Below, piece by piece: positions 18,001 to 21,000 of a DNA stretch of 64,000 nt (within the stretch, counting starts at the first letter, position 1; each line of letters begins with the position of its first letter). This DNA is from Escherichia coli (lineage in GTDB: Bacteria > Pseudomonadota > Gammaproteobacteria > Enterobacterales > Enterobacteriaceae). A program made the position numbers. Where the stretch lies: assembly GCF_024298765.1 (NCBI RefSeq), contig NZ_CP101211.1, one strand, 5' to 3'.

Positions 18001-21000
18001 CATTGGAGATCTCCAAGTTGCCCAAAAAGTTGTAATGGAGAAAATCACACAAGCTGTGGAAAGTGTTTGTGAAAAATCTTATTCCACAAAATGGGAAACA
18101 AGTGATCTTATTACTTTTGATAACAAAGATAAGTATGCAAGAATCAGTAAAAACAATACTGGAAGAAAAATTCGCATTGAATTCAATAGGATAAGTGCGG
18201 GTTTTATTAAGGAGCTAGAGGAGTTCATAAAAGAAAAATTAAAAGTATCAGAATAAATATTGAACTGCATCTTTATGATGCAGTTCATATGATTTATATT
18301 TTTAATTTCTTGTTATATTAATATGGGGTGTGCGCAGGTTCAGACATATAAGGTCTTAGTTCTATATGAACAGAAGCGCCATTCCCATCATTTACTACGT
18401 TTAAAGGTGCTTTGCCCGGCAATGACATAGTTGCAACGTCAGGTCCAGAAACAGCAAAATTATTTTCTGCTGAAGGCATTACTGTAAAAATCTTTATAGC
18501 AACATTTTCATGTCTAAATAAAGAAATCCCAAAAGTAGAACCAGCTTCGGTATTGCTCACGTCCACAACCACAGGGGTTTTTCCTAGATATTCATTAGTT
18601 AGTATGTTTTTTACTAATGCCCCTTCCGGGACAGTATAGATACGGTATGGATATGCTAAAACTGAGTGACAAAAACATAATAAAATAACAATTAATGTTT
18701 TTTTCATAGATTATCCTCATTCAAAAATAAAAGATATAACTCTTGAAAATCGTGGTTATTAATTAGGTCCGCTTTTCCGGGAAAATCGTAACTAACAGAA
18801 AATAAAAGAGAAAGAGAATCTTTTCCTTTTGCTTTGGGAGAGATTCTGCTAAAAGCACGGTTAATAAACATAAGTTGATCTTCATTGTTGAAGCAAAGTC
18901 CAAGCATTCCAACCGTAGGAACTACGAATGTGCTTACGCTGCCTGGGGGCAAAAGTTGCTTACTACGGGCATTGTAAGCACAACGACTACCACCTAGCGT
19001 TAGGCCTGAAAGCTCAATAAAACTTCTGGTTCCATTCTTGGCGACAAGCCAAACATCAGTTCCTGAACTTTCGACACGTAAAGTAACTTTTCCGTCAGTA
19101 AAGGCCTCACTTTTATTGTATAGAATAGGGTCAAAACCAACTGTCGGGAGTTCTTCGATTTTACTTTCTACTGACTGACAACCAGTCAGTAATGCAAACA
19201 ATAAAAGTGTGATAACTTTAATCATCCCGCTTCCTTAGATTGTTTTTGGCGCTGGTTATAAAAGATAATGATTCACCGGGGTAGAGAATTGTTTCTTTCG
19301 TCCAATAACCATAACCACCGAGGATATCTTTTCTTTTCTCAATATAAACCGGTTCAGAAAATTCTAAATGTTGATATTTCGGAAGAGATAAGATTTTATA
19401 TTTTACTTGTCCAACTAAGAGGTAATTCTTCTCTTTAGGATTGATGGTTACTGAATTACCAACACTTTGAGGTATGTTAAGTTTTTTTATATTTAGATCA
19501 GAATCGTCAGGAACGGACACTTGATCATTAGATGTCTTTCCGGGAAGAGTAAACCCTTTATCCTGATCCGGTCCAAAGATGGCAATTACATCTTTGTTGT
19601 TTCTTGTGATCGAAACGATAGCCTGAAGGGGCGTATTAGCAAGGTCATTTATAAACGATATAGTTATACTTGATTTAGGCTCGACCCAAACAATGCTTTT
19701 TCCGGATGTGCCTTCGCTTAATGCAATTTTTTCATTTAGTAAGATTTTATTTTTGGCAATGATATTATACTCAAGTTTCGGTATCACCATAAAAAGTGAT
19801 TCTTTATTTGAAACATTCATGATTTCTAAGAAATTGGTTTTGGTCATGCTGGTCTTTAGAACAGGCCTATATTTACCATTTATAAACCACCTTCCGTTTA
19901 TAAGCTCCGCTTTAGCAGATATAAGTGAATCACTTTTCTGAGCGGCAGAAGAAAAAGCATCTTTTCTTTGCTCTTTCTCTTGATGTGGTGCAGCTGCTGC
20001 GTGAAGATGCAAAAGTAATGTTGAAATTGAGATAATCTTCCATTTTATCTTCATCTTGTTACCTCAATGTTGTTTTCAATCGAATCGAGTTCTAAAGGAT
20101 AGGTTTTAAGTGAATAAAACTTGTTTGTTGTTTGTATTAGCTGATGACACAATAAAACTGGATTGTTCTTCATGATTATTTCTACTAATGTAAGTGCTGG
20201 TGAGTCAGTTGGCGGTATACCCGGAGCAACTATTACCTGGTCTTCTAATTTTGACATATAGAGTGATCCAGTATTTATATGTAAACAATTACCGATCAGT
20301 ACTGGAAGATTGTTTTGAGTACGACCATGGGCTTTTCGAATGCTGTTTACAGGATTCCTACCTAGGACCATAAGGTTGACGTCATTTATCATCATTGGTA
20401 TTACGGCATGGTCCATACCGAATAGAAACTGGCTCTGAAAAATATTCACATTGGCATAGTTGAATGCTTGAAGCGCATTATAAGTATCAGTGAATGATGT
20501 GCGGATAGGGGCGTAATCAGAAGGGCAAACCCCAATTTTTATATCGCCTTTGAGTAAAATCTGCATCATCGTACCAAGCTGGGTATTAAGAAGTTTTTTT
20601 ACCTCTTCCTCTAAATAGTAACGATTTACAGCTTTATGCCACTTTCCGCCCATTACACACCATCTCTCATTGAGGTATGTGCTGGGGTAAAATGTTCTCC
20701 GGTCTTTGTTTAATGGTAACAATTTTTTTAACATTTCTTCTCCGGCTCCGGCAGCTGAGAAATGCCTCACAAAACGTCCATCGAAAAAGCCACTGTTTAT
20801 CGCCTTCATCAACTCTATGGGTTCCGGCCCATAGTCAAACAAATTTCCAGTAGAGAAAATTACTATCTCTTCTTCTGGCTTTGTAACTGATTGAATCAAG
20901 TTGCACAGCGCAGAGTAATGTCCATGAGGATCTGCCAGAAAGAAAATCCTTCCCGAGAAGTTTGTAAGGTCTATAGTTTGGACGTGCTCAGCTGCCATAA

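What the first reader, a model, noticed from the sequence alone, without database searches (positions are those of the whole stretch)
18318..20998. Translationally coupled minus-strand operon of four exported proteins led by a degenerate metallophosphoesterase
Four ORFs on the minus strand overlap by 4-8 bp at each junction (20051/20054, 19218/19225, 18704/18707). Three have signal peptides or a lipobox. The first has only partial calcineurin-type motifs (LADPHGH, GNLFDYG), so it may be a catalytically altered phosphoesterase. The operon sits between the ParAB and ParM-like partition modules and is divergent from parM, so it could be a transfer-regulation or surface function.
Basis: partly seen in the sequence, partly recalled or inferred. 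Interest (0 to 1): 0.4.

Follow-up and report, generated by a model that had tools for sequence, protein, structure and literature searches.

The report
IncHI plasmid Z operon (trhO-eexB-orf017-trhZ)
This is the already described "Z operon" of IncHI resistance plasmids, an accessory conjugation module that encodes the exclusion protein EexB and two transfer-frequency factors; the only new points are that its first two proteins look like enzyme folds that have lost their metal sites.

Summary
Four minus-strand ORFs (315, 278, 173 and 129 aa) overlap by 4, 8 and 4 bp. Each has a Shine-Dalgarno sequence. They end at a hairpin shared with the convergent parB.

The window is an IncHI2 plasmid, and the block is 100% identical in many sequenced plasmids. 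The four genes are orthologues of R27 R0015-R0018, the Tra2 "Z operon": trhO, eexB, a lipoprotein gene and trhZ. Published work on R27 shows three things. The operon is activated by TrhR/TrhY and countered by HtdA. EexB is an outer-membrane exclusion factor. trhO and trhZ raise transfer frequency.

New here:
- TrhO has a lambda-phosphatase fold but lacks most catalytic residues (D49N, N75A, H76G, H139P, H186R). It is still under strong purifying selection (dN/dS 0.04). It has no signal peptide, so only three of the four proteins are exported.
- The EexB model is a SufI/CueO-like pair of cupredoxin domains without copper ligands. It is the fastest-evolving gene of the four.
- TrhZ is PEGA-like.

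The operon is confined to IncHI-type plasmids. Verdict: ordinary and already known, with modest structural additions.

The parts
20999..21361 (.). AT-rich divergent intergenic region between trhO and parM; presumed Z-operon promoter region (TrhR/TrhY-dependent in R27)
   Evidence: No sigma-70 consensus match lies inside it, which fits an activator-dependent promoter. Conserved blocks are shared with R27 and L004. Regulation is taken from the R27 literature, not tested here.
20051..20998 (-). trhO (R27 R0015 orthologue, 72% identity): cytoplasmic lambda-phosphatase-fold protein with a dismantled dinuclear metal site
   Evidence: Pfam Metallophos scores 24.4 bits against a cutoff of 21.5. The best PDB sequence hit is 1G5B. 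The AF2 model has pLDDT 81 and pTM 0.86, and Foldseek matches 1G5B at E 6.6e-12. hhalign gives 97.7% probability with D49N, R53Y, N75A, H76G, H139P and H186R. There is no signal peptide. dN/dS is 0.04.
19218..20054 (-). eexB (R27 R0016 orthologue, 41% identity): secreted two-domain cupredoxin-like protein without copper ligands; the exclusion factor
18704..19225 (-). orf017 (R27 R0017 orthologue, 57% identity): lipoprotein, probably outer-membrane, with two further invariant cysteines
   Evidence: The lipobox L/V-T/S-G/A-C at Cys16 is conserved in five lineages. C82 and C111 are invariant. It is called 'Lipoprotein (Z)'. It has no Pfam, NCBIfam or PDB match.
18318..18707 (-). trhZ (R27 R0018 orthologue, 78% identity): small secreted PEGA-like protein, the most conserved product
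   Evidence: The signal-peptide-like N-terminus ends in VLA|YP. The Pfam PEGA match is below threshold at 16.2 bits against 20.8. The family profile recovers PEGA-repeat proteins at E 3.5e-8. Changes within IncHI2 fall only in the signal peptide.
18261..18287 (.). 11-bp-stem hairpin between the convergent trhZ and parB stops; likely bidirectional terminator
   Evidence: The terminator scan finds it on both strands, and I read the sequence.

Best explanation
The region is the IncHI2 copy of the Z operon of the IncHI conjugative transfer region Tra2, with gene order trhO-eexB-orf017-trhZ.

Transcription and translation. It is transcribed as one unit from the trhO-parM intergenic region. In R27 this transcription depends on the activators TrhR/TrhY and is held down by HtdA. 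Overlapping stop and start codons couple translation of the four genes.

Products:
- TrhO stays in the cytoplasm. It keeps the lambda-phosphatase/PrpA fold but has lost most metal-binding and catalytic residues. It most likely acts by binding rather than by hydrolysis (inferred).
- EexB is secreted and folds as two cupredoxin-like domains without copper sites. The literature places it at the outer membrane, where it mediates exclusion of incoming IncHI plasmids and is needed in both donor and recipient.
- Orf017 is an outer-membrane-type lipoprotein.
- TrhZ is a small secreted PEGA-like beta-sandwich protein.

Proposed mechanism (inferred). The three exported proteins form an accessory envelope module. 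In donors it promotes productive mating. In plasmid-carrying recipients it blocks mating. The variable second domain of EexB sets specificity, and the lipoprotein and/or TrhZ tether EexB, which has no anchor of its own.

Shown versus inferred. Shown here: anatomy, orthology, folds, loss of catalytic residues, selection pattern and distribution. Taken from the R27 literature: regulation, exclusion, and the transfer-frequency phenotypes of trhO and trhZ. Inferred: the pseudoenzyme role and the complex.
For: Identity of the window. The block is 100% identical in many IncHI2 plasmids, and 1126 plasmid records hold a match. Its coordinates are the same as in pR18.0877_278k.

Orthology and synteny with R27 genes at 20184-22897, which lie between parM and parB.

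Gene names. R0015 is trhO 'phosphodiesterase', R0016 is eexB, R0017 is a lipoprotein and R0018 is trhZ, all marked (Z). They rise 8.25-, 12.13-, 17.14- and 15.99-fold in the htdA mutant at 25 C. A depositor labelled the first and last genes TrhO and trhZ in CP052400.

Literature:
[quoted passage not shown] - trhO and trhZ increase transfer frequency.

The operon is conserved at 45-57% and at about 24-30% TrhO identity, always inside Tra2.

TrhO fold and residue map. Purifying selection on TrhO, dN/dS 0.04.

EexB fold, no copper ligands, fastest evolution.

Signal peptides and lipobox are conserved.
Against: - The primary papers (Lawley 2003, Gunton 2008) were not readable here. The phenotypes come from secondary citations and a supplementary table.
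- The trhO insertion phenotype could be polar on eexB, orf017 and trhZ.
- TrhO keeps D23, D55 and E87. It also has family-conserved histidines: H121 in all lineages, and H197, H224 and H240 in the IncHI1/HI2-like lineages. An unconventional metal site is therefore not excluded, and I could not inspect model coordinates.
- The EexB model comes from a 12-sequence alignment (pLDDT 76). Its outer-membrane location is hard to reconcile with a soluble-looking fold unless it has a partner.
- No evidence here shows that the four proteins interact.
- All experiments are on IncHI1 R27, and EexB is only 41% identical between R27 and this plasmid.
Confidence: 0.88

Rival explanations
1. TrhO is an active phosphatase or phosphodiesterase with a non-canonical metal site. 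It would regulate conjugation enzymatically, for example by dephosphorylating a host or plasmid regulator or by hydrolysing a nucleotide signal such as Ap4A. This is how it is annotated: 'phosphodiesterase' or 'metallophosphoesterase'.
For: The Pfam Metallophos match is above the gathering score. The fold is closest to lambda phosphatase and ApaH-like enzymes. D23, D55 and E87 are retained, and H25 is present in the IncHI1/HI2 proteins. Extra conserved histidines are H121, H197, H224 and H240. Strong purifying selection shows that the protein matters.
Against: In all 16 family members the bridging Asp is Asn. In 15 of the 16 the general-acid His is Gly and the motif-V His is Arg (the IncHI1B protein has His and Val there). 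The Asn metal ligand is Ala or Phe, and the motif-IV His is Pro, Ser or Ala. H25 itself is Tyr or Cys in about half the lineages. Two independent alignments agree on this map. Scaffolds with this fold but little or no enzymatic role are known, and Vps29 appears among the structural hits.
Confidence: 0.2
2. Only eexB matters, and the operon is purely an exclusion locus. The reported trhO phenotype would be a polar effect. The lipoprotein and TrhZ would be dispensable passengers or helpers for EexB export and anchoring, with no role in the donor.
For: [quoted passage not shown] The overlapping genes make insertions polar. The R27 literature lists many non-essential Tra2 genes.
Against: TrhZ is the most conserved product, at 61-78% identity among the four IncHI1/HI2-type lineages and 40% to the IncHI1B protein. 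TrhO has dN/dS 0.04. Such constraint is unexpected for passengers. trhZ is the last gene, so an insertion there cannot be polar on the others, yet it is reported to lower transfer. The operon is switched on with the transfer genes when HtdA is lost, which is donor-type regulation rather than the constitutive expression typical of exclusion genes.
Confidence: 0.15
3. The block is cargo unrelated to conjugation, such as an envelope stress, metal or defence function, that happens to sit between two partition modules.
For: It is flanked by parAB and parM rather than by tra genes in IncHI1 and IncHI2. EexB resembles copper oxidases in fold.
Against: In IncHI1B plasmids the same operon lies directly between htdA and trhC with no par genes nearby. 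It is found only in IncHI-type transfer regions. It has no PADLOC match and no copper ligands. It is co-regulated with tra operons in R27.
Confidence: 0.03

Closest known systems
Z operon of IncHI1 plasmid R27 (R0015 trhO, R0016 eexB, R0017 lipoprotein, R0018 trhZ)
   Same: It has the same four genes in the same order, with similar sizes (323/279/173/130 aa against 315/278/173/129 aa). The junctions overlap in the same way. The position between parM and parB in Tra2 is the same. Identities are 72, 41, 57 and 78%.
   Different: This is the IncHI2 allele set. EexB is only 41% identical, so exclusion specificity may differ. In this plasmid the neighbouring parM is cut by ISKpn26. No experiments exist for the IncHI2 copy in the literature I could read.
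Bacteriophage lambda Ser/Thr phosphatase and E. coli PrpA/PrpB (PPP-type calcineurin-like metallophosphoesterases)
   Same: TrhO shares the fold (Foldseek E 6.6e-12, TM 0.70-0.73 on 1G5B; hhalign 97.7%) and the motif skeleton DxH...GxxxD...GxxE...GGxW...D.
   Different: Five of seven catalytic or metal residues are replaced. There are about 30 residues of insertions and a C-terminal beta extension of about 60 residues. TrhO is not a functional member by the motif criteria.
SufI/FtsP, the copper-less multicopper-oxidase homologue of E. coli, and CueO-type oxidases
   Different: EexB has two domains, not three. There is no significant sequence similarity (Pfam Cu-oxidase E 0.03; no PDB sequence hit). 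It has a Sec-type rather than a Tat-type leader. Its function is exclusion, not cell division. The link rests on a predicted model.
Other exclusion factors: F TraT/TraS, SXT/R391 Eex, IncC Sfx/EexC, IncP TrbK
   Same: These are functionally analogous. Each is a plasmid-encoded envelope protein that blocks redundant transfer, and EexB is grouped with TraT and Sfx as a surface-exclusion-type factor.
   Different: No Pfam or NCBIfam family of these proteins is matched. According to the literature, EexB is needed in both donor and recipient, unlike Sfx or TraT.

Membership tests
IncHI Tra2 Z operon | Located in the Tra2 transfer region of an IncHI-type (MOBH, MPF_F) plasmid | tested here: met
   The window is collinear with IncHI2A plasmids. 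Flanking genes are trhC, parA and parB on one side and parM, htdA, rsp and trhF/W/U/N on the other.
IncHI Tra2 Z operon | Four genes orthologous to R27 R0015-R0018, in the same order and on one strand | tested here: met
   Global identities to R27 are 72, 41, 57 and 78%. Order, sizes and overlaps are the same.
IncHI Tra2 Z operon | Co-transcription, with activation by TrhR/TrhY and repression through HtdA | not testable with these tools
   Known for R27 only. Here the evidence is limited to overlapping genes, one upstream intergenic region and one terminator hairpin.
IncHI Tra2 Z operon | Exclusion activity of EexB, and reduced transfer when trhO or trhZ is disrupted | not testable with these tools
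   Secondary citations of Gunton 2008 and Lawley 2003. The primary papers are not held.
Calcineurin-like metallophosphoesterase (PF00149), PPP / lambda-phosphatase type | Overall fold and profile match | tested here: met
   Pfam scores 24.4 bits against a cutoff of 21.5. Foldseek matches 1G5B at E 6.6e-12. hhalign gives 97.7%.
Calcineurin-like metallophosphoesterase (PF00149), PPP / lambda-phosphatase type | Motif I, D-x-H (metal 1 ligands D20 and H22 of lambda phosphatase) | tested here: inconclusive
   D23 is invariant. H25 is present in this plasmid and R27 but is Tyr or Cys in 9 of 16 family members.
Calcineurin-like metallophosphoesterase (PF00149), PPP / lambda-phosphatase type | Motif II, G-D-x-x-D-R (bridging Asp D49 and phosphate-binding R53) | tested here: not met
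   The motif reads GNLFDYG. Asn is invariant at the D49 position in all 16 members, and R53 is Tyr, Asn or Trp.
Calcineurin-like metallophosphoesterase (PF00149), PPP / lambda-phosphatase type | Motif III, G-N-H-E (metal 2 ligand N75 and general acid H76) | tested here: not met
   The motif reads G-A-G-E. N75 becomes Ala or Phe. H76 becomes Gly, with His only in the IncHI1B lineage.
Calcineurin-like metallophosphoesterase (PF00149), PPP / lambda-phosphatase type | Motif IV His (H139) and motif V G-H (H186), both metal 2 ligands | tested here: not met
   H139 becomes Pro, Ser or Ala. H186 becomes Arg, or Val in IncHI1B. MAFFT and hhalign agree. The phmmer register differs but also places Arg there.
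Multicopper oxidase / cupredoxin superfamily (EexB) | Cupredoxin-type Greek-key beta-sandwich domains in the multicopper-oxidase arrangement | tested here: met
Multicopper oxidase / cupredoxin superfamily (EexB) | Copper ligands (four HxH motifs and the type-1 Cys/His/Met site) | tested here: not met
   The mature protein has 0 Cys and a single His (H229). No His or Cys column is conserved apart from that one.
PEGA domain (PF08308) (TrhZ) | Profile match above the Pfam gathering score | tested here: inconclusive
   The score is 16.2 bits against a cutoff of 20.8, and 3 of 5 lineages hit at E<0.1. The family profile retrieves proteins with bona fide PEGA repeats at E 3.5e-8 to 1e-3.
Bacterial lipoprotein (orf017) | Lipobox [LVI][ASTVI][GAS]C at the end of a signal peptide | tested here: met
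   The lipobox is LTGC, VTGC, LSGC, LSGC and LTAC in five lineages, with Cys at 16 or 17. The +2 residue is Gln or Ala, not Asp, so outer-membrane sorting is inferred.
Known exclusion protein families (TraT, TraS, Eex of SXT, TrbK) | Sequence-profile membership | tested here: not met
   None of the four proteins gives a Pfam or NCBIfam hit to these families at E<=1.

The most novel reading that the evidence does not exclude
The Z operon is built from exapted 'dead enzyme' folds. TrhO would be a catalytically inert lambda-phosphatase-fold protein. EexB would be a copper-less SufI/CueO-like two-cupredoxin protein. EexB's conserved first domain would dock onto the co-encoded outer-membrane lipoprotein and/or the PEGA-like TrhZ. 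Its fast-evolving second domain (residues about 171-230) would perform the homotypic donor-recipient recognition that sets IncHI exclusion specificity. As far as the searchable literature shows, neither fold assignment has been reported for these proteins.
Probability: 0.35. Interest if true: 0.45.

Novelty: already known. Interest (0 to 1): 0.22.

Why it matters
IncHI1 and IncHI2 plasmids are major carriers of multidrug, mcr and heavy-metal resistance in Salmonella, E. coli and Enterobacter. Exclusion and transfer-frequency modules shape which plasmids can spread into which hosts. The operon itself is catalogued, so finding it again adds nothing.

What may be useful is a set of concrete, testable structural handles on proteins whose mechanisms are unknown:
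- a pseudophosphatase that is nonetheless tightly conserved;
- an exclusion factor with a SufI-like fold and a mapped variable region;
- a prediction that the lipoprotein or TrhZ anchors EexB.

The allelic variation of EexB within otherwise near-identical IncHI2 backbones could define exclusion groups relevant to plasmid epidemiology.

Tried and rejected
- Defence-system reading: no PADLOC hit for any of the four proteins.
- Regulatory RNA: no Rfam match in 17000-24000 at E<=0.1.
- Promoter: the sigma-70 scan found no consensus site in the trhO-parM intergenic region, and overall there were fewer hits than in shuffles. I did not assign a promoter. A four-lineage alignment of the intergenic region showed conserved blocks near parM, but these cannot be assigned to trhO rather than to parM or a parC-like site.
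- Sequence search of PDB with family profiles for EexB, orf017 and TrhZ gave nothing significant.
- NCBIfam gave only far-sub-threshold PrpA/PrpB matches for TrhO and noise for the other three.
- The weak Pfam hits of EexB to TssR, and the weak NCBIfam hits of EexB to FusF and a dehydrogenase, were dismissed as noise.
- The primary papers (Gunton 2008; Lawley 2003, PMC145343) are not held. R478 (BX664015) and MH287084 are not in the plasmid collection.
- The AFDB50 fold library was unavailable.
- A literature search for 'trhO' mostly returned the unrelated tRNA hydroxylase.
- I could not locate eexA. It is not named in the tables I could read.
- I could not inspect model coordinates, so the spatial position of the conserved histidines of TrhO is untested.
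Full report
**Observation**

I read the reverse strand directly. The junctions are ATGA, ATGATTAA and ATGA, giving overlaps of 4, 8 and 4 bp. Each start is preceded by a Shine-Dalgarno-like GAGGA, GAGGT, AGGAAG or GAGGA.

An 11-bp-stem hairpin at 18261..18287 lies between the trhZ stop and the convergent parB stop. It scores as a terminator on both strands.

The region is 36% GC, so random ORFs of this length are very unlikely. All four products also have conserved homologues.

The motifs LADPHGH and GNLFDYG are present. A simple N-terminal analysis finds a hydrophobic signal-like segment in the 278-aa and 129-aa proteins and a lipobox (LTGC, Cys16) in the 173-aa protein. 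These features are conserved in five lineages. The 315-aa protein has no such segment in any lineage, so three of the four products are exported, not four.

**Identity of the locus**

The 3.4-kb block is 100% identical in many IncHI2 plasmids, including pAPEC-O1-R, and 1126 plasmid records hold a match. The window has the same coordinates as pR18.0877_278k, typed IncHI2A, MOBH, MPF_F.

The neighbours are the Tra2 genes:
- on one side trhL/E/K, htdO, trhB, htdT, trhV, trhC, parA and parB;
- on the other side parM, htdA, two 'plasmid transfer protein' genes, rsp, trhF, trhW, trhU and trhN.

R27, the IncHI1 reference plasmid, has the same four genes at 20184-22897 between parM and parB. Global identities are 72, 41, 57 and 78%.

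**What the literature says**

The supplementary tables of Gibert et al. 2020 (PMC7366339) name the R27 genes as follows:
- R0015 is trhO, 'phosphodiesterase'.
- R0016 is eexB, 'exclusion protein'.
- R0017 is 'lipoprotein'.
- R0018 is trhZ.

All four are marked as belonging to the Z operon. Their expression does not respond to temperature in wild type. They rise 8.25-, 12.13-, 17.14- and 15.99-fold at 25 C in the derepressed htdA mutant.

[quoted passage not shown] Rivard et al. 2024 (PMC11493245), citing Gunton et al. [quoted passage not shown] They also say that EexA and EexB are needed in both donor and recipient.

A 2024 review citing Lawley et al. 2003 states that trhO and trhZ increase transfer frequency and that htdA does the opposite.

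An independent depositor labelled the first and last genes of the homologous Klebsiella operon TrhO and trhZ.

The primary papers were not available.

**Operon conservation and distribution**

TrhO homologues form only 14 clusters at 90% identity in 5.8 billion proteins. A TrhZ family profile finds only 18 representatives in 1.84 billion proteins.

The most distant lineages keep the four genes in the same order with similar sizes:
- L003, at 45% TrhO identity: 304/268/173/128 aa.
- L004, at 57% TrhO identity: 315/273/172/128 aa.

Both lie next to parM, htdA and rsp homologues.

In Klebsiella IncHI1B/FIB plasmids the operon (267/238/166/138 aa) lies directly between a divergent htdA and trhC, with no partition modules nearby. 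TrhO there is 24% identical in global alignment and about 30% in tblastn. The operon therefore belongs to the transfer region. The flanking par modules in IncHI1 and IncHI2 are not part of it.

tblastn finds TrhO only in IncHI-type plasmids of Enterobacterales.

**TrhO**

Fold assignment:
- Pfam Metallophos is just above its gathering score, at 24.4 bits against 21.5.
- The best PDB sequence match is lambda Ser/Thr phosphatase 1G5B.
- NCBIfam PrpA and PrpB models match far below cutoff.
- An AlphaFold2 model from an 18-sequence alignment is confident (pLDDT 81, pTM 0.86).
- Its best structural match is 1G5B (Foldseek E 6.6e-12, TM 0.70-0.73 on the target). ApaH-like proteins, PP5 and the scaffold Vps29 follow.

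Residue mapping used MAFFT alignments and an independent profile-profile alignment (hhalign, 97.7% probability). Parts of the lambda sequence were confirmed against the PDB alignment. The roles of the lambda residues come from established knowledge of the 1G5B structure.

| Lambda phosphatase residue | TrhO residue in this plasmid | Across the 16 TrhO sequences |
|---|---|---|
| D20 | D23 | invariant |
| H22 | H25 | Tyr or Cys in 9 of 16 |
| D49 (bridging) | N52 | Asn in all 16 |
| R53 | Y56 | Tyr, Asn or Trp |
| N75 | A85 | Ala or Phe |
| H76 (general acid) | G86 | Gly; His only in IncHI1B |
| H139 | P159 | Pro, Ser or Ala |
| H186 | R214 | Arg; Val in IncHI1B |

The canonical dinuclear site therefore cannot form, and this holds in every lineage, including IncHI1B. 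Yet the protein is under strong purifying selection. Between two IncHI2 sublineages there are 7 nucleotide changes, 1 amino-acid change, and dN/dS 0.04.

The simplest reading is a pseudophosphatase that retains a binding or scaffolding function. Conserved histidines (H121 in all lineages; H197, H224 and H240 in the IncHI1/HI2-like lineages) leave room for an unconventional site. I could not test this without model coordinates.

**EexB**

EexB is the most divergent product, at 34-41% identity between lineages.

Within IncHI2 plasmids, TrhO is at least 99% identical to the window copy in 1112 records. EexB reaches that level in only 193 records and is 95-99% identical in 908. In one pairwise comparison EexB carries 13 amino-acid changes (dN/dS 0.44), while TrhO and orf017 carry one each. 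Further alleles at 78-87% identity exist.

The AlphaFold2 model from 12 sequences (pLDDT 76, pTM 0.72) has these parts:
- a disordered N-terminus (residues 1-40);
- a beta domain at 45-162;
- a low-confidence linker at 165-179;
- a second beta domain at 200-277.

Conservation is high in domain 1 and low across residues 171-230.

The mature protein has no cysteine and one histidine, so it cannot bind copper as an oxidase does. In this respect it resembles SufI/FtsP.

EexB has no lipobox and its model shows soluble-type beta-sandwich domains rather than a beta-barrel. Its reported outer-membrane location therefore suggests a partner. The co-encoded lipoprotein and TrhZ are the obvious candidates. 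This is inference.

**Orf017 and TrhZ**

Orf017 has a conserved lipobox, a non-Asp residue at +2, and two further invariant cysteines, C82 and C111. It matches no known family or solved structure.

TrhZ is the most conserved product, at 61-78% identity among the four IncHI1/HI2-type lineages and 40% to the IncHI1B protein. Within IncHI2 the only changes fall in its signal peptide. Its Pfam PEGA match is below threshold, at 16.2 bits against 20.8, and is seen in 3 of 5 lineages. The family profile does retrieve proteins with genuine PEGA repeats at E 3.5e-8 to 1e-3. 'PEGA-like' is therefore a moderate inference.

**Mechanism**

Shown here:
- a translationally coupled four-gene unit;
- one upstream intergenic region that lacks a sigma-70 consensus, which fits activator dependence;
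- one terminator hairpin.

Taken from the R27 literature:
- activation by TrhR/TrhY and repression through HtdA;
- exclusion by EexB, which is needed on both sides of the mating;
- lower transfer when trhO or trhZ is disrupted.

Inferred:
- the three exported proteins form an envelope accessory module that helps mating in donors and blocks it in plasmid-carrying recipients;
- the variable second domain of EexB sets specificity;
- TrhO contributes from the cytoplasm by binding rather than by catalysis.

**Rivals**

- An active but non-canonical phosphatase (about 0.2).
- A pure exclusion locus in which the trhO phenotype is a polar effect (about 0.15). The conservation of TrhZ and TrhO argues against this, and trhZ is the last gene, so an insertion there cannot be polar.
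- Unrelated cargo (about 0.03). The IncHI1B context, the restricted distribution and the co-regulation with tra operons argue against this.

**Comparison and verdict**

This is a member of the known IncHI Z operon, by synteny and by orthology of all four genes. It is the common IncHI2 allele.

By motif criteria TrhO is not a functional member of the metallophosphoesterases, although it has their fold. By ligand criteria EexB is not a multicopper oxidase, although its model has their domain arrangement. No relation to TraT, TraS, Eex or TrbK was found.

The additions made here are incremental and computational:
- the residue map that supports a pseudophosphatase;
- the SufI-like fold of EexB;
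- the rate contrast among the four genes;
- the IncHI1B context without par modules.

Interest is low.

Noticed in passing
window 12124..15594: A 249-bp tandem repeat array of about 9.8 plus 3.5 copies (76-86% matches) fills the ORF-free, GC-richer gap between trhC and parA. R27 has an unannotated gap at the equivalent place (25338-28465 of NC_002305).
   Followed up: partly
window 21362..23147: parM is truncated to 234 aa and is followed by an ISKpn26 (IS5-family) transposase gene on the minus strand at 22167..23147. pAPEC-O1-R has a full 345-aa parM plus a 212-aa downstream (parR-like) gene, with the IS further on, just before htdA. This plasmid has therefore lost the 3' end of parM and the partner gene, so the Par2 module is probably inactive.
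   Followed up: partly
L002 (R27, NC_002305) 20184..20207: The RefSeq start of R27 trhO gives 8 extra N-terminal residues (MQFQKEAF). Most of the other lineages aligned (11 of 15; three 325-aa metagenomic proteins also carry an N-terminal extension) begin at the conserved MA(A/S/D)EH, which suggests that the true start is the internal ATG at 20208.
   Followed up: no
L007 (CP052400.1) 6980..9364: In Klebsiella IncHI1B/FIB plasmids the Z operon sits directly between a divergent htdA and trhC, with no ParAB or ParM modules. The partition modules that flank it in IncHI1 and IncHI2 are therefore not part of the operon's conserved context.
   Followed up: partly
L008 (ENA ERZ5381845 contig) 2130..3112: A more distant TrhZ homologue (131 aa, profile E 2e-18) is separated from the upstream 333-aa and 188-aa genes by an oppositely oriented YdjM-family gene. 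This is a variant operon layout in an uncharacterised element.
   Followed up: no
window 19218..20054 versus IncHI2 plasmids in PLSDB: IncHI2 plasmids carry at least two common EexB alleles, one identical or nearly identical to this window and one about 95% identical, on otherwise near-identical backbones. Rarer alleles are 78-87% identical (P0016-P0018). These may be distinct exclusion types.
   Followed up: partly
window 36001..36873 (minus): A 290-aa ORF next to trhN corresponds by position and length to the R27 'lipoprotein' at 4082..4954, which is R0004 by gene order. R0004 is highly expressed at both temperatures in the R27 array data. I could not determine whether this or another gene is eexA.
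   Followed up: no
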